Source: Candidatus Methylomirabilota bacterium
GTDB taxonomy: Bacteria; Methylomirabilota; Methylomirabilia; Rokubacteriales; CSP1-6
Length of the DNA: 12,595 nt
Direction of reading: 5' to 3'
Assembly: GCA_046726415.1 (NCBI GenBank)
Contig: JBKPAK010000095.1
Span: forward strand, 1-12,595
Positions within the stretch are counted from its first letter, which is position 1, and each line of letters opens with the position of its first letter. The position numbers and the translations under genes are program-made. The notes below the pieces were generated by a model. The model saw only the letters and a list, made by a program, of their open reading frames with translations. It was not told the origin of the DNA and did not search any database. Positions 2-11,247 of the stretch are shown here, piece after piece.

Positions 2-622
2 CTCGTCGGCAACACCACGGGCAACCTCAACATCGCCCTGGGGACCGGCGCGGGGTTCAACGTGACGACCGGCAGTAACAACATCCATATCTACGACGCC
101 GGTACAGATGCCGATAACGCCCTCATCCGCATCGGCACCGCAGGCACCCAGACGGCCACCTTCATCGCGGGTATCAACGGCGTCAACATCGGCATGGGGG
201 CGCCGGTGCTCGTCAACGCGAATGGCCAGCTCGGCACCATGATGTCGGCGGCTGGCTTCAAGGAGGGCATCGAGGACCTAGGCGAGGGCAGCCGCCGGCT
301 CCTCGGGCTACGGCCGGTGCGCTTTCGCTACAAGGCCCAACACGACGATCCGTCGCGGCCCGTGCAGTACGGGCTCGTGGCGGAGGAGGTGGCTGCCGTC
401 TTCCCCGAATTGGTGTACCCAGGCCCTGACGGTGCCCCGTACTCGGTGCGCTACCACCTGCTGAGCGTCCTTCTACTGAACGAACTCCAGCGGCAGGAGC
501 GAGAGTGGCGAGCGAAGAAGGCGGAGGCAGCGGCCCGCTTTGAGGCTCAGCAGGCTCAACTTGACGAGCTGCGGGCGCAGGTGCGGGCGCTGATCGGTGG
601 AAGGGCGGCGGTCAGAGAATGA
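2..622 (+). CDS. Tail-fibre-domain protein with C-terminal intramolecular chaperone (Peptidase S74-like) domain; 5'-truncated by window
   Basis: Frame open from base 2 (LVGNTTGNLNIALGTGAGFNVTTGSNNI..., Gly/Asn repeats). Then S74-type motifs FKEGIEDL, LLGLRPVRFRYK, QYGLVAEEVAAVFPELV, SVRYHLL and a C-terminal coiled coil. Confidence 0.85.
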   Translation, partial: LVGNTTGNLNIALGTGAGFNVTTGSNNIHIYDAGTDADNALIRIGTAGTQTATFIAGINGVNIGMGAPVLVNANGQLGTMMSAAGFKEGIEDLGEGSRRLLGLRPVRFRYKAQHDDPSRPVQYGLVAEEVAAVFPELVYPGPDGAPYSVRYHLLSVLLLNELQRQEREWRAKKAEAAARFEAQQAQLDELRAQVRALIGGRAAVRE

Positions 623-1769: not shown

Positions 1770-3407
1770 CTATTTCGGTTTCCCGCAGCCGACCGTCGTG
1801 AGGGAACTCGACCCGGAAATCGATAGACCATTGGCAGTCTGCCCGGTAAGGATGGCGGACGTATCACCGCACATAATGCCCGTGTCCTGAGTTTCGAATC
1901 GGACAACCATGTCGGTTCGTCCATCCCCGTCAACATCCCTGAATCGAACACTCACCGGAGTTGCCTCGCTACCGGTCCGACCAAAACGGACCGTATTGGG
2001 TTCAACGGTGGTCGCGTCAAATTCCTCTCGCGTAAAGATCACCACGGGGATTTTTCCATGGCTTTTGGGGTTAATCTTATTCGCTTCGGACCGCGGTCTG
2101 ATATCGATCACCACTTCCAAGCCCGCGGTTTGGAACTCGACGGCGCCGATATCGCAAATCCCTATGCGGGCCAATCCGAGCTGATCAGTTGGCGGGCACG
2201 CCTCAGGACGGGCGCTATCTATGGCCTGGCTACTCGCCAGCAGAGGGAAGTGGCCGCCGCCTGGAGTTCCGTCGTCGGTGAACTCGCCCAAACCGGGATC
2301 GCCGATGATATCATTCCCGAGAAGGCTGATCGTACAATCCGTGGGATCACCGATCAGGTTATGGTCTAACGAGGTAATCGCGCCAAAACAGTCGGGTCCT
2401 TTGGCGTTCACACCATCGCGGACTCTATTACCGGCCAAGATAGTGTTCTGCAGTGTCACCGTCCCCGTCCCCGGATTCTCGATGCCGCCGCCACGAAGAA
2501 CCGGACCGCCGCCAATAGTAGACGCCGTGTTGTCAGCGAGCGTGCTGTTGGCAATCATGACTGTACCAAGCAACCGGTTGGACAATGCCCCTCCGCCGCC
2601 ACCATTGACCGCGCCATGCATGGTATTACGAGCCAGTGTGCTGCTCGTAATGCTCACCGTTCCACCATTAGCGATAGCGCCACCGGCCCCGAGATTACCG
2701 AAAGTAGAGTTATCAGTAAAGGTGCTGTTGGTCACGGCGAGCATGCCTTGGTTGTTGATGGCACCTCCCGAGGCGCTGCGGTTAACGCGGACAAAATTAC
2801 TGGCAAATGTCGTGTTCGTCACGATGGTCACGGCGGCTCCGACGCCAGCAATGGCGCCACCGGATCCGCGTTGGTCCCGAACGGAGTTTCCCGTGAGGAC
2901 GCTATTCATGATTGACAGAGTCCCAAAGTTTAAGATGGCTCCGCCGGAGTCTTCGAACCCGAAAACAACTCCGGGACCGCGAACAACGCCGCCTCGTAAG
3001 GTGACTTCGTCGAGGATCAGGCTGCCGGTTGACGCAATGTGCACAAGACGAAAGACGGGGGCGGCGCCGTCCCGTTCGAGAATGGTACGGTCAGCACCAG
3101 CACCCCGAATGGTAACTGTGCTTTTGATCGACGGCAGACCGTTCGGCCCATCATCGCTATTGTTGTCCACGGTGGTTAATGTATAAGGACCCGGCCCCAA
3201 AGTGATCGTGTCCTCTTCCGGTGTGTCATTGGCCGAGTTCACCGCGGCTATGAGACAGGTGGCGTCTCCAGAGGAACAGAAAAACTCTGCGGCATGCAGC
3301 GGATGAGGAAGTACGACGGCAAAGAGAAGGAGGAGCGTTATCTTTGGTAGCATGACGCACCCCACGCAGGAGCGAGTCCGAACGGACATGGTCGCTCTGA
3401 AGGCCAT
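1770..3407 (-). CDS. Secreted right-handed beta-helix protein with GGAI(x)N repeats and choice-of-anchor-Q-like segment
   Basis: Repeated GGAILN/GGAINN/GGAIAN/GGALSN/GGGIEN motifs and LQNTILAGN...DCFG...SLDHNLIGD...SQAIDSA...DQLG...CDIGAVE. C-terminal IDIRP...DVDGDGRTD domain. Signal peptide ending PLHA-AEF. GGAGG before ATG 3407; alternative start 3353. Confidence 0.85.
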   Translation of the reverse strand: MAFRATMSVRTRSCVGCVMLPKITLLLLFAVVLPHPLHAAEFFCSSGDATCLIAAVNSANDTPEEDTITLGPGPYTLTTVDNNSDDGPNGLPSIKSTVTIRGAGADRTILERDGAAPVFRLVHIASTGSLILDEVTLRGGVVRGPGVVFGFEDSGGAILNFGTLSIMNSVLTGNSVRDQRGSGGAIAGVGAAVTIVTNTTFASNFVRVNRSASGGAINNQGMLAVTNSTFTDNSTFGNLGAGGAIANGGTVSITSSTLARNTMHGAVNGGGGGALSNRLLGTVMIANSTLADNTASTIGGGPVLRGGGIENPGTGTVTLQNTILAGNRVRDGVNAKGPDCFGAITSLDHNLIGDPTDCTISLLGNDIIGDPGLGEFTDDGTPGGGHFPLLASSQAIDSARPEACPPTDQLGLARIGICDIGAVEFQTAGLEVVIDIRPRSEANKINPKSHGKIPVVIFTREEFDATTVEPNTVRFGRTGSEATPVSVRFRDVDGDGRTDMVVRFETQDTGIMCGDTSAILTGQTANGLSISGSSSLTTVGCGKPK

Positions 3408-3626
3408 CAGCTCCTCCGACGAGCGACGGTCAGAGAGGTATCGCAGATGCTGGCCTGGATTCGGCTCGTTGTCAAGGGTGCAAGTGCGCCTGCTTATGCG
3501 GCCCTGCCCAGGTCTCGGGGCAGAGTACGCCGAGCTCAGGACAACCCGAGTGGAGCGGACGCCGGTCCGGGTGAAGACCATGGGGACCGCAGCAGGGCAC
3601 TCCTGTCGATTGGGTGGCGGCGGACA

Positions 3627-3808
3627 GTGGCGGACCACCGGGCCAAGCTCACCTTGACGCCCTTCCTCCCGCACGACCTCGCGGAGTGATCACCGCTCGC
3701 GCGATCCGTGAGGGGAAGAACGTAGCGGCGTTCGTGGCAGGGATTCTGACGGAGAAGCAGCTGGGCGACAACCGAGGGGATACGTTGGGGCGACAAAAGG
3801 ACGGCTAA
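3627..3808 (+). pseudogene. Frameshifted small protein, possibly ribbon-helix-helix-like (copy 1)
   Basis: VADHRAKLTLTPFLPHDLAE, then 1 nt missing near 3688, then ITARAIREGKNVAAFVAGILTE. Aligns with copy 2. Confidence 0.55.
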
Positions 3809-4119: not shown

Positions 4120-4263
4120 GTGACAGCGTGGATACGCCTCGACCTCCTCACCCGTCGCATTGTCGGCCAGCGCATGGAGCACGGGGGCGACGCCGAGAAG
4201 GATGAGGCCCTCGACAAGCTGATGGTGCTCCGCGCGTGGACGGCGCGGCGGCTGGTGAATTGA
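4120..4263 (+). CDS. Possible 47-aa hypothetical protein
   Basis: VTAWIRLDLLTRRIVGQRMEHGGDAEKDEALDKLMVLRAWTARRLVN. GC3-biased, with a TTGA overlap into the next start. Start uncertain. Confidence 0.4.
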   Translation: MTAWIRLDLLTRRIVGQRMEHGGDAEKDEALDKLMVLRAWTARRLVN

Positions 4264-4308
4264 GCGATAACGAGGACCCGACCATTGAGCGATGACGAGG
4301 ACCCGACC
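4259..4308 (+). repeat. 25-bp tandem duplication (1 mismatch)
   Basis: ATTGAGCGATAACGAGGACCCGACC (4259-4283) and ATTGAGCGATGACGAGGACCCGACC (4284-4308). Confidence 0.95.
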
Positions 4309-5166: not shown

Positions 5167-5375
5167 TTCGTTCCGAGCACCTCGTCGATGCCGCCGTGCT
5201 CGTCGATCAGGCGCCGGATCACCTTGGTCTCGTCAACCCTGGGCGGAGGACACCGCCAGGCTTTTGCATGAAAGAGCGCCCAGTGCCAGATCGAGGTGTA
5301 CTCGTCCTACCCAACGACCTTGCGGTGCTGGATGCAGAGGCCAGCGTAACGGGGCAGCTTGGGCAGGCGCTTCAT
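5163..5375 (-). pseudogene. 70-codon micro-ORF with in-frame TAG
   Basis: MKRLPKLPRYAGLCIQHRKVVG*DEYTSIWHWALFHAKAWRCPPPRVDETKVIRRLIDEHGGIDEVLGTK, with TAG at 5309-5307. Extended -10 TGgTACACT lies 9 nt upstream of the ATG. Confidence 0.45.
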
Positions 5376-5415
5376 CGCCCCGGAAGTGTACCATCGCCCC
5401 GGAAGTGTACCATCG
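5373..5415 (+). repeat. Perfect 19-bp tandem duplication
   Basis: CATCGCCCCGGAAGTGTAC twice (5373-5391, 5392-5410) plus CATCG. Confidence 0.95.
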
Positions 5416-5433
5416 ACGCCGTGTTCGTCGAGG

Positions 5434-5589
5434 ATGCGGAACAACGGTCCCGTGGTCAGCTGCGAGTGGTGCCGCACGCCGATCCATGAGGGTGAAGCGA
5501 GGCTCCGGTTCTTCGCGATCGCGTATCACCTGGGCTGCTGGGATGCCTCGGTGGAGGCGCTGATCGTGCCACCACGGCGGCAGGAGTAA
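5434..5589 (+). CDS. 51-aa putative zinc-binding micro-protein (CxxC...HxxC)
   Basis: MRNNGPVVSCEWCRTPIHEGEARLRFFAIAYHLGCWDASVEALIVPPRRQE. Paralog at 4285. Confidence 0.6.
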   Translation: MRNNGPVVSCEWCRTPIHEGEARLRFFAIAYHLGCWDASVEALIVPPRRQE

Positions 5590-6730: not shown

Positions 6731-7818
6731 ATGGCGCGACGCGGTGACGGCATCTACCAGCGGGGCAAGGTGTGGTACCTGGACTTCGTTCATGAGGGCC
6801 GCCGGCACGTCGTGCGCCTCGGGCGGGCATCAACCGGACGGTCGCCCGCGAGCTGGCCAGCGTGAAGCGCGCGGGGATTCTCAAGGGCGAGGTCGGTATT
6901 GGCCCCAAGGTGCGGAATCATCCGACGTTCGAGCAGGCCAGCGCCGAGTTCCTGAAGTGGATGAACACCAACAAGAAGCCGCGCACGGCGCGAGGCTACC
7001 GGAACGCCCTCAAGCATCTGGCGCGATCGTTTGGCGGGTGCCGGCTCAGTCAGATCGATGAGCTGAGCGTCGAGCGGCACAAGCGCACCCTGGTCGAGGC
7101 CGGCCACGGCACGGCCGCCAACCGCCAGCTGGCCATCCTACGGAGCCTGTTCAACCGCTGTCGTGACGATCTGAAGGTCTACGACGGGCCGACGCCGCGC
7201 ATGCGGCTGGTGCGCGAATCACCAGGACGTCTGCGGTTCCTCGACGCCGCCGAGGAGCAGCGTCTGCTCGAGCATGTCACGGAGCCTGTGCGGACCATCA
7301 TCCTGGTGGGCACCCACACGGGCCTCAGGATCACCTCGGAGGCCCTGGCCCTCCAGAAGCAGGACGTCGACCTTGCCCGTGGCCTCCTGACCGTCCAGAC
7401 CGCCTATGCGAAGAACGGCCGGACGCGCACCGTCCCCCTCAACCGGGTGGTGCGGGCCGCGCTGGCCAGGATCTTCGAGCAGACGCCTGGCCCGTTCGTG
7501 TTTGCTCGGCGGGATGGCCGACCGCTTCGGACCATCCGCAAGCCGTTCGAGGCCGCCTGTGAGGCCGCCAAGCTCACGGACGTCACCCCCCACACTCTGC
7601 GACACACGTTCGCTTCCAAGCTGGCCATGGCCGGCGTGGACCCACGGACGATCCAAGAGTTGGGCGGCTGGCGCTCGCTCGCGATGGTCGCGCGCTACAC
7701 GCACCTGAGCCCGACCCACAAGGCCGAGGCCGTCGAGCGGATCGCCGAAAATTCCCCAACGCTTTTCACAACAGGGCCGACGGCGACGACTGGCCAGCGT
7801 CGCGTAAGTGCTTTATAG
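6731..7818 (+). CDS. int: Tyrosine recombinase/phage-type integrase (Int1) with 1-nt frameshift near 6826
   Basis: Arm-binding-like N-terminus MARRGDGIYQRGKVWYLDFVHEGRRHVVRLGR from ATG 6731 joins INRTVARELASVKRAG... in the 6862 frame. Catalytic motifs TGLR, AKNG, HTLRHTFAS, LGGW, ARYTH. Confidence 0.93.
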
Positions 7819-9125
7819 TGTTGGCCCAGGCCGGGGTAGCTCAGTGGTAGAGCAGCTGATTCGTAATCAGCAGGCCGCGGGTTCAAATCCCGCCCCCGGC
7901 TCCATTCAGAATCAATCACTTCCGAATCGTCGCGTCCTCCGAAAGGGCGGTTTGGTTCCACTTTTGGTTCCAGATCAGCGAGCAGAGCCTCCGCCGTGGC
8001 CTTCAGGTCGTCCCGTCGATCGAGGACCTCGACCCAGCGCTGGCCCCTGGACGGAATCCACCGGGCGTAGAAGCGGAGCGTCGTGGCGGGATTGGCGTGG
8101 CCGAGCTGCGCGGCGACGTACGTGATCGGCGCGTTGCGCGCCAAGAGCAGGCTCGCGAAGGTGTGGCGGAGATCGTAGACTCGGAAGGCGGGCAGGCCGG
8201 CTCGCCTGAGCACTCCGCGGAAGACCCGGCCCACCTTGGTCTCGTCCATTGGTCGGCCCACCTCACTCGGAAAAAGCCACTCGGGCTGGCCCCAGCCGCA
8301 CCGGAACGCCTCCGCCTTGAGCCATGTCAGGTGCTCGAGGAGGATCCGGGTGAGGTTTCGGCTCATCTCTACGGCACGTTGGTCGTGGGTCTTCGTGTCC
8401 TTCTCGCGCCTCAGGCTCCACGCGCGCTCCACGCGGATCAGACGTTGGGGGAAGTCGAGATCGCCCGGTCGCAGTGCGAAGCCCTCGCCCGGGCGCAGGC
8501 CTGCGTAGACCAGCGTTGCGAAGAGCGCGAAGTGCCGCCGCTCAGCCGCTGCCGCGTCGAGGAACGCTTGGCGTTGCTCCCACGTCATCGGCCGGATGCG
8601 CTGTACACGCTCGGACTGGGTCAGCTTGTTGGCGCGACCGCCGAGACGGCGGCCGAGCTGGAGCGCCGGGTTGACGGGGATGAGGCCGTCATCCACGGCC
8701 TCGGAGAGCAGCGCCGAGAGCGGGGCCTTCATGAGCCGCACGCTGTTCTTCGAATGCCCCTGCCGGCGCTTCTCAGCAAGGAACGCCTTGATGTGCGCGC
8801 GGTGGATCAAGCGCAGTTTCAAGTGGCCGAGCGCGGGCAGCACGTGACGCTTGAGGCGCTCGGCGTAGCTCCGGTGCGTATTGGGTGCCCGGTCCGCTTC
8901 CACCATCGCCAGCCAGCGCGTGGCGTACTCGCGGAGCGTGATCTCACGGTCCTGGATGACAGGTAGGACTTGTCCGACGCGGCGGAAGACCTCGGTCGCA
9001 AACTCGTGCGCAGCCTCCTCGGTCGAGAAGAGGGGCCGACGGCGCACGCCATCGATGTCGCGATAGTCGACCTCCCAGACGCCGCGGTTCTTGCGGAAGC
9101 GGATCGTGACCTTCGCTCTCGCCAT
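7695..9125 (-). CDS. int: Tyrosine recombinase/phage-type integrase (Int2); ORF reads through the tRNA antisense
   Basis: Arm-binding-like N-terminus (RGVWEVDYRDIDGVRRR), core-binding region, catalytic motifs AGLRPGE, DTKT, YDLRHTFAS, QLGH, LRFYA. GGAGG SD upstream. Confidence 0.95.
   Translation of the reverse strand: MARAKVTIRFRKNRGVWEVDYRDIDGVRRRPLFSTEEAAHEFATEVFRRVGQVLPVIQDREITLREYATRWLAMVEADRAPNTHRSYAERLKRHVLPALGHLKLRLIHRAHIKAFLAEKRRQGHSKNSVRLMKAPLSALLSEAVDDGLIPVNPALQLGRRLGGRANKLTQSERVQRIRPMTWEQRQAFLDAAAAERRHFALFATLVYAGLRPGEGFALRPGDLDFPQRLIRVERAWSLRREKDTKTHDQRAVEMSRNLTRILLEHLTWLKAEAFRCGWGQPEWLFPSEVGRPMDETKVGRVFRGVLRRAGLPAFRVYDLRHTFASLLLARNAPITYVAAQLGHANPATTLRFYARWIPSRGQRWVEVLDRRDDLKATAEALLADLEPKVEPNRPFGGRDDSEVIDSEWSRGRDLNPRPADYESAALPLSYPGLGQHYKALTRRWPVVAVGPVVKSVGEFSAIRSTASALWVGLRCV
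7791..7819 (+). promoter_or_regulatory. Putative sigma70 promoter for tRNA-Thr inside int1 3' end
   Basis: TGGCCA (7791-7796), 17 nt, TATAGT (7814-7819). Mature tRNA starts at 7830. Confidence 0.55.
7830..7904 (+). tRNA. tRNA-Thr(CGT)
   Basis: Full cloverleaf: acceptor GCCGGGG/CCCCGGC, D arm GCTC/GAGC, anticodon arm GCTGA-TT-CGT-AA-TCAGC, T arm GCGGG-TTCAAAT-CCCGC, discriminator T, encoded CCA at 7902-7904. Confidence 0.98.
7910..7972 (+). promoter_or_regulatory. Putative att arm of right element: IHF-like site plus arm-type direct repeats
   Basis: AATCAATCACTTC (7910-7922) has 1 mismatch to WATCAANNNNTTR. TTTGGTTCCA occurs at 7951-7960 and 7963-7972. Confidence 0.6.
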
Positions 9126-9137
9126 CGCCTCCTCGAC

Positions 9138-9608
9138 TCAGATCATCGGAGACCTGCGTGGTCGCCCGGCCGGGCTGGTGAGACGGGTCGGCTGCATGTC
9201 TCTGCGAGGATTGAGCGACTCTATGGGGCGCTGTCCATCTTCGTCAACGTCACGCTTCGGATACGCCAGCCACTGCCGCAGTCCCCCGACCGAGATCATC
9301 CAGTACTTCCCGGACTTCGTCGCCGGGATCCGGCCGGTCCGGCACAGCTCGTGGACATAGGCCGCCTTGAGGCTCAGGCTCTCGGCGACCTGCTGGGGCG
9401 TCAGGTGCCGCAGTTCCTCGACGGAATCTATGGCGAGCGGTGCCGTCCGGGTGGTCGTCACGCTCACCAGGCGCTGCCAGAGGATGGCCTTGAGGCGTTC
9501 GAGACCGCCGAGGAGTTCGACGAGGTGCGGCTGCCCGGCGGTGTTGATCGTGCGCTCCAGGGAGAGGAGCAGGTCGGGTTCGGGATCAGGTGGGGTGGTC
9601 GACGTCAT
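9138..9608 (-). CDS. Excisionase-type (HTH_17/MerR-like) DNA-binding protein
   Basis: HLTPQQVAESLSLKAAYVHELCRTGRIPATKSGKYWMISVGGLRQWL. Ends 12 bp upstream of int2 on the same strand. Confidence 0.85.
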   Translation of the reverse strand: MTSTTPPDPEPDLLLSLERTINTAGQPHLVELLGGLERLKAILWQRLVSVTTTRTAPLAIDSVEELRHLTPQQVAESLSLKAAYVHELCRTGRIPATKSGKYWMISVGGLRQWLAYPKRDVDEDGQRPIESLNPRRDMQPTRLTSPAGRPRRSPMI

Positions 9609-9783
9609 TGCGCATCCCCGCGGACCACGCCGAAGTCGATCTTGTGATCAGCCGCTCGTAATCGCACCGGCACCTCCGTCTCGCCCGGCAAGACACTGCA
9701 AGGATTCGACCGCGCTCGGCCAACACCCGAAGTTCCGACGGGACGCGGCGTTGCGCGGCGTGAGCGTGCTCGCCGGCTCCGAA

Positions 9784-9968
9784 GAAACGACACGAAACGA
9801 CACGAAACGACAACGGCACTGAAACCACGCGGGCTTACGCGTCACCGGAGCTGCCCCAGACCCCCGAAAACGACACGAAACGACACGAAACGACAACGGC
9901 GCTGAAACCACGCGGGCTTACGCGTCACTGGACCTGCGCAGACCCCCGAAACGACACGAAACGACAAC
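9784..9968 (+). repeat. Nested direct-repeat array: 83/81-bp units containing 10-bp iteron-like repeats
   Basis: Units start at 9785, 9868 and 9949. AAACGACA(CG) recurs with 10-bp period in groups of 3+3+2, separated by near-identical 53/51-bp linkers containing CTGAAACCACGCGGGCTTACGCGTCAC. Confidence 0.95.
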
Positions 9969-10132: not shown

Positions 10133-10504
10133 ATGAAGGTCGTCCACGGTTGGCCGACGGCGCTGCTGCACGCGGTCAAGGAGCGAAACGTCGAGGCTGT
10201 GCGCGTCGCGGCGTTCCTGCAGAGCAGCGACGTCATCTCGAACGGCATCCCGCGCTACACGGCGTGGGTGGTCGTCACGGCGCGGCTCGATCTCGATTGG
10301 AACCTCTGGACCGAGTGGCGTCTCCTGATCGGGCGAGGCTACGCGGAGGTGACCGAGCATGGGGCTGCTGTCCCGGCACGACTCGCTGGGCTCCAGAAGG
10401 AGAAGACTGGGGAGATTCGCGCGCGCGTGACTGAGGCCGGCCTCGGCGTGCGCGGCGGAATCCTCGCCCACGACGCCGAGGCGTTGGACGGGGTTGTCCT
10501 GTGA
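10133..10504 (+). CDS. Hypothetical protein, paralog A
   Basis: GAGG SD. Full-length similarity to 10879-11247. Confidence 0.8.
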   Translation: MKVVHGWPTALLHAVKERNVEAVRVAAFLQSSDVISNGIPRYTAWVVVTARLDLDWNLWTEWRLLIGRGYAEVTEHGAAVPARLAGLQKEKTGEIRARVTEAGLGVRGGILAHDAEALDGVVL

Positions 10505-10796: not shown

Positions 10797-10878
10797 GCCG
10801 CCGCCAGGCGAGCCGGCGCTGCCGAGCTCCTGAAGCTTCTCGGACCCGTGATGACCACGTAGAAAGGCCGTGCACACG

Positions 10879-11247
10879 ATGAAGCTCCTCTTCGACTCCC
10901 TGGACGCGTTTCTCGTCGAGATCCGCGACCGGAATGTGGAGATCGTGCGCATCTCGCCGGCGCTCGCGATCGACACGGGCCGGCGGACGGCGGGGATCCC
11001 ACATCTGGTGAGCCGCGTGCTGGTGACGGCTGCGCTCAACGAGCATCACTGGGCAGAGTGGCGGCACTGGGTGGGCCGCGCCGTCGCGGAGGTCGGCGAC
11101 CGCGGCCTCCATCTGCCCGCGTGGCTCCGGGAGAAGCAGGACCGGGCGCTCGCCGAGGTCTCGAAGCGTGTGGACGACGCCGGCCTTCGGGTCCGCGAGG
11201 GGATTCTCACTCACGATGCGGGTGTGATGGACAGCTTCCGGCTATGA
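10879..11247 (+). CDS. Hypothetical protein, paralog B
   Basis: Start chosen by alignment with paralog A (MKLLF vs MKVVH). Shared motifs RNVE-x-VR, GIP, VTA, W-x-EWR, GR-xx-AEV, AGL-x-VR-x-GIL-x-HDA. Confidence 0.8.
   Translation: MKLLFDSLDAFLVEIRDRNVEIVRISPALAIDTGRRTAGIPHLVSRVLVTAALNEHHWAEWRHWVGRAVAEVGDRGLHLPAWLREKQDRALAEVSKRVDDAGLRVREGILTHDAGVMDSFRL

What the first reader, a model, noticed from the sequence alone, without database searches (positions are those of the whole stretch)
7695..7990. Int2 has no stop before the att site, so its C-terminus depends on integration state
Seen: the int2 frame crosses the tRNA antisense (EWSRGRDLNPRPADYESAALPLSYPG) and continues 124 bp into int1, stopping at 7695. 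Established: in myxophage Mx8, attP lies within int and integration replaces the Int C-terminus, lowering activity. Inference: Int2 could have three tails (excised circle, integrated alone, integrated beside the left element), so the neighbour element would rewrite this integrase. Int2 mRNA would also be antisense to the tRNA and int1.
Basis: partly seen in the sequence, partly recalled or inferred. Interest (0 to 1): 0.7.

Follow-up and report, generated by a model that had tools for sequence, protein, structure and literature searches.

The report
Integrase whose tail neighbours rewrite
A mobile element in a soil bacterium has its DNA cut-and-paste site inside the end of its own integrase gene, so the enzyme gets a different last stretch when it is excised, inserted alone, or inserted next to another element; the design is known from phage Mx8, but here neighbouring elements also rewrite the end.

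Summary
Confirmed. Int2 (476 aa, tyrosine integrase, probable Rokubacteria host) reads across the tRNA-Thr(CGT) att core and stops 124 bp inside int1. One such run-on is unremarkable (35% of random frames stay open this long).

The family evidence is strong. In DNA loci found without using the tail, 22 of 28 relatives with a nearby att cross the crossover, including 18 of 18 beside an intact tRNA. They almost always use the single open frame of their target (Lys, Asn or Thr).

Near-identical Int2 copies carry all three predicted tails: distal-arm (444 aa, matching my reconstruction), host-flank, and int1-neighbour (476 aa, plus a 445-aa variant). int1 marks a 5'-side island and is frameshifted here.

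Unlike Mx8, only a short, predicted-disordered, poorly conserved tail after residue 422 is swapped, and one clade of 25 does without read-through. No effect on activity is shown. An ssrA-like degron in the element's own attP tail was rejected (0 of 9 end in Ala). Ala-ended tails from foreign arms remain a weak lead.

Verdict: a new variant of the Mx8 att-in-int design. This scan reported the design before on other DNA, but not for this sequence.

The parts
7695..9125 (-). int2, tyrosine integrase of 476 aa in this state; catalytic Tyr353; enters the tRNA antisense at W408; crossover near E422
   Evidence: (PF00589, PF14659, PF22022 at or above cut-off)
7695..7859 (-). state-dependent tail (codons 423-476): antisense of the tRNA 5' half, then of the left element's arm and the int1 3' end
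7830..7904 (+). tRNA-Thr(CGT), the shared target; inferred to be a chimera (3' half from the int2 element, 5' half from the int1 element)
   Evidence: 3' copy on contig C172; 5'-type island in G002; chimera status is inference
7859..7906 (+). att core, 48 bp from the anticodon loop to the 3' end; second copy (47/48) at G000:C172:3937-3984
7953..7972 (+). two direct TGGTTCCA repeats, putative arm-type sites of Int2, encoded inside the int2 ORF
   Evidence: same motif at the C193 paralog; function inferred
7933..7949 (+). terminator-like hairpin after the tRNA, inside int2
   Evidence: 2 found, 2.0 expected: weak
7791..7819 (+). sigma70-like promoter for the tRNA, inside the 3' end of int1
   Evidence: 2 found, 0.2 expected; similar -10 in relatives L002 and L005
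6731..7818 (+). int1, tyrosine integrase of the left (5'-type) element; one-base frameshift near 6824-6826 separates codons 1-32 from the rest (intact relatives are 362 aa)
   Evidence: G inserted at 6824 in an X2 contig
7751..7773 (+). putative arm-type repeats of int1, placed symmetrically to Int2's about the anticodon loop
   Evidence: similar motif on C11, C233, C59; inferred
9138..9608 (-). excisionase-like HTH_17 gene directly upstream of int2
9783..9968 (+). 10-bp-periodic GACAC repeats upstream of xis-int2, similar to repeats in the C172 arm; putative Xis sites
   Evidence: 6 such triplets in the genome, 4 of them at elements of this family; 0 in shuffles; function inferred

Best explanation
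Int2 belongs to an integrase family (Rokubacteria, possibly wider) whose gene spans its own crossover site in the tRNA anticodon loop, as in Mx8. SHOWN: the ORF crosses the site; whatever DNA lies on the far side of the crossover supplies the last codons; four different ends occur on near-identical Int2 copies; the family keeps the one frame that is open across each target tRNA. INFERRED: read-through is kept by selection because it lets DNA state set the enzyme's extreme C-terminus. The folded enzyme is untouched. The circular form ends in a short, usually acidic tail. The integrated form ends in a tRNA-antisense tail, mostly uncharged in the Lys-targeting majority. This most likely tunes Int half-life or activity so that the circle integrates well and the resident excises rarely. 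In tRNA-Lys the antisense D-arm supplies a stop 8 codons after the crossover. In tRNA-Thr(CGT) base 7 is G, so there is no stop and the frame runs into the flank. That is why a 5'-side neighbour (the int1 element) rewrites this Int. The rewriting by neighbours is real in sequence but is probably a by-product.
For: Natural tail variants of 93-100% identical Int2: P0121, P0122 (444 aa) and P0132 match the 444-aa reconstruction from C172. P0004 and P0128 match the host flank seen in G002. P0001, P0126, P0130 and P0131 match the window. P0123 (425/425 identical) and P0129 end in a shifted frame. DNA survey with tail-free queries: 35 loci matched the script's motif, 28 had an att within 300 nt, 22 of those cross, and 18 of 18 beside an intact tRNA cross. 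21 of 24 distinct target/distance classes sit in an open frame against 42% expected (p=5e-6; kin not independent). tRNA-Lys, -Asn and this -Thr each have one frame open to the anticodon loop, and the family switches frame with target; that switch needs at least 3 changes on the tree. Protein set: 73 of 113 classifiable representatives cross, 6 enter the core and stop, 34 stop before. Arm motifs appear in all three frames (28/23/10; 3 unassigned of 64) while the core frame stays fixed, which implies compensated indels. Integrases of other families next to tRNA 3' ends stop short: 4 of 4 in this genome, plus L002 and L167. Mx8 has the same geometry, Tyr354 with the att near residue 417.
Against: No functional data. 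The swapped part is predicted disordered. Own attP tails are 9-31 aa and share only a loose T-x-x-DD-like motif that DNA repeats can explain; 6 of 9 are net acidic, 2 basic, 1 neutral. A well-supported clade of 25 of the 111 tree rows stops just before the att, so read-through is dispensable. Among more distant relatives only 30 of 125 classifiable cross (147 examined, 22 without the motif). Only 4 of 10 integrases beside a tRNA fragment cross. The protein searches used queries that contained the tail, which favours read-through forms. The C172 arm has TGGTAGC-type repeats against Int2's TGGAACC-type, and no contig link joins C95 to C172. The 444-aa form could therefore be a tandem-junction form and not the true circle.
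Confidence: 0.55

Rival explanations
1. Neutral by-product. Arm sites and host-factor sites lie inside the int 3' end, the genome is GC-rich, and the ancestral frame is simply inherited. The tails are tolerated junk with no effect on the enzyme.
For: 35-57% of random frames stay open for 92-40 codons. The tail is disordered and not conserved. The 25-member clade that stops early is widespread. Conserved peptide bits map onto DNA motifs that are also seen beside unrelated integrases.
Against: The frame is kept across 24 target/distance classes and changes to the one open frame when the target changes. Early-stop forms inside read-through clades are mostly single tips, and one has an intact cluster-mate (P0006 versus P0190).
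Confidence: 0.28
2. RNA-level control. What matters is that int mRNA and ribosomes cross the att. In the integrated state the message is antisense to the tRNA (and here to int1) and is cut or destabilised, akin to lambda sib retroregulation (recalled). The peptide is incidental.
For: Convergent layout: a tRNA promoter-like site at 7791-7819 and a hairpin at 7933-7949 face the int2 message. All 18 integrases beside an intact tRNA cross the anticodon loop.
Against: Antisense overlap does not need an open frame. No RNA data were available.
Confidence: 0.1
3. Hostile tagging. Arms of later-arriving elements put an Ala-ended, ssrA-like degron on the displaced integrase and so lock arrays in place.
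For: 14 of 37 junction-tail families end in Ala and 6 of 37 in Ala-Ala, against 1 of 21 run-on tails (Fisher p=0.0055) and a genome background of 11-12.5% and 1.5%. The same arm types sit on integrases of different clades and in tandem arrays (C193, L166).
Against: In an independent DNA set of tRNA-Lys distal arms, 5 of 24 families end in Ala against 4 of 41 control frames (p=0.27); by sequence 10 of 42 against 7 of 75, and Ala-Ala 2 of 42 against 0 of 75. Own attP tails: 0 of 9 end in Ala. Int2's own tails do not end in Ala-Ala. DNA motifs next to the stop could give the ending. The pattern was found post hoc.
Confidence: 0.07

Closest known systems
Myxococcus phage Mx8 integrase (and Mx9)
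   Same: Tyrosine integrase with attP inside the int ORF, about 60 residues after the catalytic Tyr. tRNA target. Excisionase gene directly upstream. Integration gives a new C-terminus (PMC6070905 and PMC4701971, passages).
   Different: Not an orthologue: only 93 N-terminal residues align, at 34%. Mx8 swaps 112 residues for 13 and is then less active (PMC4701971, passage). Int2 swaps 22 disordered residues for 23-54. Neighbour-supplied tails are not mentioned in the passages I read. The primary Mx8 and Mx9 papers were not held.
SSV-type suicidal integrases of archaea
   Same: att inside the int gene and translated; tandem integration can create hybrid genes (PMC7253208, abstract and passages).
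   Different: [quoted passage not shown] Here the whole catalytic domain and its last helix stay intact.
Integration-dependent immunity of mycobacteriophages (BPs)
   Same: Site-specific recombination changes a C-terminus; Int and repressor carry C-terminal degradation tags (PMC3694055, passages).
   Different: There attP lies in the repressor gene and the circle form has the tag. Here the att lies in int, and 0 of 9 own attP tails end in Ala.
Tandem and 5'-fragment tRNA islands (Islander)
   Same: Islands on either side of a tRNA and tandem arrays are known: 159 of 3919 islands have a 5' fragment, and overlap of att by Mx8/SSV integrases is allowed for (PMC4383910, passages).
   Different: The effect of one island on its neighbour's integrase C-terminus is not discussed in the passages I read.

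Membership tests
Lambda-type tyrosine integrase | Catalytic domain with R-K-(H/Y)xxR-H-Y residues plus N-terminal arm- and core-binding domains | tested here: met
   PF00589 78.6 bits, PF14659, PF22022; R211, K245, Y317/R320, H343, Y353 invariant in 46 sequences; fold matches XerA, Tn1549 Int and lambda Int
Mx8-type att-in-int design | Crossover site inside the int ORF, downstream of the catalytic Tyr | tested here: met
   Tyr353, core at residues 408-422; alternative tails on near-identical copies
Mx8-type att-in-int design | Targets the 3' part of a tRNA and restores it | tested here: met
   Intact tRNA-Thr plus a 48-bp 3' copy on C172
Mx8-type att-in-int design | Integration replaces a long C-terminal segment with a short one | tested here: not met
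   22 residues replaced by 23-54 in Int2 copies; 112 by 13 in Mx8 (PMC4701971, passage)
Mx8-type att-in-int design | Integrated form has lower or altered recombinase activity | not testable with these tools
   needs an assay
Mx8 integrase orthologues | Full-length sequence similarity to Mx8 Int | tested here: not met
   Only residues 62-154 align, 34%; best phage hits are 29-30% identical
SSV-type suicidal integrases | Integration splits int into two inactive halves | tested here: not met
   Folded part (to residue 385) lies wholly on one side of the crossover
Integration-dependent immunity (BPs) | attP inside the repressor gene | tested here: not met
   att lies in int
Integration-dependent immunity (BPs) | ssrA-like Ala-Ala tag on the circle form | tested here: not met
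   0 of 9 own distal-arm tails end in Ala
5'-fragment tRNA island (int1 element) | Distal copy of the tRNA 5' half upstream of the element | tested here: inconclusive
   Not found in this 352-contig assembly; the layout is seen with an int1-like gene in same-genus G002

The most novel reading that the evidence does not exclude
At tRNA hot-spots, co-resident elements edit each other's integrase in cis. Because this family's int ORF must run through the crossover, any later arrival dictates the resident enzyme's C-terminus, whether it is a 3'-side tandem element (often one with no detectable integrase) or a 5'-side island such as int1. Some arms have evolved Ala-ended degron tails to switch the resident off. 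That would be a protein-level conflict between mobile elements written by site-specific recombination.
Probability: 0.12. Interest if true: 0.8.

Novelty: new variant of a known kind. Interest (0 to 1): 0.48.

Why it matters
A 2016 paper calls att-in-int integrases very few (PMC4701971, passage). This family has dozens of members across three tRNA targets and supplies natural isoforms of one enzyme with four different ends. That makes it easy to test directly whether C-terminal swapping controls integrase stability or directionality. It also shows that tandem accretion and 5'-side insertion change a neighbour's protein sequence, a route of interference between elements that I did not find described in the searches run (search listings only). 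Practically, it explains tRNA-antisense peptides at the ends of annotated integrases.

Tried and rejected
Sequence error: rejected.

ssrA-like degron on the element's own circle form: suggested by Ala-Ala ends, rejected by 0 of 9 own distal-arm tails. The independent DNA test of Ala enrichment was not significant.

Linking C95 to C172 through contig ends failed. A search of 183 genomes with the C172 arm found only chance-level hits.

No RNA holder was listed. The contigs laid showed no attP-type joint. Neither result is evidence either way.

Viral contigs gave mostly distant integrases; only 3 of 80 loci (L085-L087) were close enough to use, and none crossed an att.

Script slips: the first A/B tail classifier mis-split classes and was corrected, with two rules fixed by hand. 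The tail translation was one base off and was redone. The motif missed L039/L064 (cross) and L049 (stops before), both seen.

Literature: PMC178153, PMC93897, PMC219415 and PMC3557535 were not held, so Mx8 and BPs facts come from passages of reviews and an addendum. Two narrow searches returned 0 papers; a Rokubacteria search listed no paper with that word among the 10 shown. Most subscription papers and supplements are not searched, so absence from print is not established.

No earlier finding of this scan matched this protein by sequence.

Full report
OBSERVATION. The window is contig C95 of a 7.6-Mb, 67.5% GC draft genome. Record titles and names of relatives point to Rokubacteria. int2 runs 9125->7695 (-), 476 aa, with PF00589 and N-terminal integrase domains; an HTH_17 excisionase-like gene lies upstream. 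The frame crosses tRNA-Thr(CGT) at 7830-7904 and ends 124 bp inside int1. Alone this is not beyond chance: 35% of random frames stay open for 92 codons. It is not an error: 12 of 13 cluster members with a readable end cross the att, and a contig from run X3 spans 7875-8120 without gaps.

THE ATT SITES. The only other copy of the tRNA 3' half is 48 bp at C172:3937-3984, starting at the anticodon loop. Joining that arm to int2 in a script gives a 444-aa protein with a 22-residue acidic tail. Three database copies of Int2 (P0121, P0122, P0132; 97-98% identical) end in this same tail type, and none of the near-identical copies has another junction tail. The arm also has 10-bp-spaced GACAC-like repeats that resemble those upstream of xis. 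Against this assignment: the C172 arm-type repeats differ from Int2's at two of eight positions and match a remnant on C172's other side, and the contigs could not be linked. I take the 444-aa form as the probable circle form; a tandem-junction origin is not excluded.

THE LEFT ELEMENT. int1 points at the tRNA 5' end, with arm-like repeats placed symmetrically to Int2's about the anticodon loop. Same-genus G002 has the diagnostic layout: host 5' half, about 3.7 kb of DNA, an int1-like gene, then a second 5' copy. The host flank there translates, in Int2's frame, to a tail homologous to that of P0004 and P0128, which are therefore the integrated-alone form. P0001, P0126, P0130 and P0131 have the window's tail. 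P0123 (425/425 identical) and P0129 end after a small frame shift in the left flank, which fits a 2-base insertion at 7822 seen in run X2. The distal 5' half is missing from this assembly. int1 here has a one-base frameshift near 6825, so the neighbour may be immobile.

FAMILY. One search listed 120 of 194 hits. Seven lacked the motif. Of the rest, 73 cross the anticodon loop (55 into the tRNA 5' half, 18 into a foreign or distal arm), 6 enter the core and stop, and 34 stop before; 25 of those 34 form one clade. That query contained the tail, so I repeated the test on DNA found with tail-free queries. Thirty-five loci matched the motif, 28 had an att within 300 nt, and 22 cross: 18 of 18 beside an intact tRNA and 4 of 10 beside a fragment. 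21 of 24 target/distance classes lie in an open frame against 42% expected (kin are not independent). tRNA-Lys, -Asn and this -Thr have one open frame each, and the family uses it, switching frame at least three times on the tree. Arm motifs are read in all three frames while the core frame is constant. Integrases of other families beside tRNA 3' ends stop short of them (4 of 4 in this genome; L002 and L167). Among more distant relatives read-through is a minority (30 of 125 classifiable). In Lys targets a stop in the D-arm antisense ends the protein 8 codons past the crossover. In Thr(CGT) base 7 is G and the frame runs on, which exposes Int2 to whatever lies upstream of the tRNA.

WHAT THE TAIL COULD DO. 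AlphaFold2 gives a lambda/Tn1549-like integrase with pLDDT <50 from residue 385 on. The swap at residue 422 leaves the enzyme intact. Own distal-arm tails from 9 elements (8 assigned as the next core on the same contig, 4 of them with decayed integrases) are 9-31 aa, 6 of 9 net acidic, and none ends in Ala. Junction tails from arrays are enriched in Ala ends (14 of 37 families versus 1 of 21 run-on tails, p=0.0055). An independent set of tRNA-Lys distal arms gave only 5 of 24 versus 4 of 41 (p=0.27). That charged C-termini stabilise and non-polar ones destabilise bacterial proteins is recalled knowledge, not tested here. Best reading (0.55): selected read-through that ties Int's end, and probably its stability or activity, to DNA state. 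Rivals: neutral inheritance (0.28), RNA-level control (0.10), hostile degron tagging (0.07).

COMPARISON. It works like Mx8 in layout: att about 60 residues after the catalytic Tyr and an excisionase upstream. It is not an Mx8 orthologue and does not lose a long domain. It is not an SSV suicidal integrase and not a BPs-type immunity switch. Papers seen as passages: PMC4383910, PMC6070905, PMC3694055, PMC4701971, PMC7253208. All others were seen as search listings only. The primary Mx8, Mx9 and BPs papers were not held, and no supplements were read. This scan has reported the att-in-int design in several other genomes but not for this sequence.

VERDICT. A real feature and a new variant of a known kind. 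The new elements are the documented multiple tails on one enzyme, rewriting by neighbours on both sides of the tRNA, and frame tracking across targets. Function is unproven. Interest 0.48.

Noticed in passing
window 6731-6862: int1 has a one-base frameshift after codon 32; intact relatives are 362 aa. Pseudogene or assembly slip.
   Followed up: partly
window 7695-7698: Int2's stop codon is the antisense of int1's catalytic Arg-Tyr codon junction, which may fix the end of the 476-aa tail.
   Followed up: partly
G000:C193:1116, 9508, 54369: Three tRNA-Lys cores form a tandem array. The Int2 paralog's present tail comes from an 8-kb neighbour with no detectable integrase of this family.
   Followed up: partly
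window 9783-9968; C59:14861; C171:1166: Triple 10-bp GAAACGACAC repeats upstream of xis in three elements of this family; possible Xis operators or origin iterons.
   Followed up: partly
clade of P0031-P0094 type proteins (tree): The clade that stops before the att often ends in Ala (13 of 34 early-stopping representatives), possibly a constitutive degradation signal in place of tail swapping.
   Followed up: no
P0119; G000:C301:9428: Integrases that read into a tRNA in the sense direction from its 5' end, i.e. read-through in 5'-type islands.
   Followed up: no
G000:C312 tRNA-Phe; C205, C148: Two 5'-half copies of tRNA-Phe indicate more 5'-type islands in this genome.
   Followed up: no
window 10133-10504 and 10870-11247; 4259-4308 and 5359-5589: Pairs of paralogous small ORFs without Pfam hits recur inside the two elements.
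   Followed up: no
window 2-622 and 1770-3674: A Peptidase_S74 (intramolecular chaperone) domain ORF and a low-GC secreted repeat protein without Pfam hit, probable cargo.
   Followed up: no
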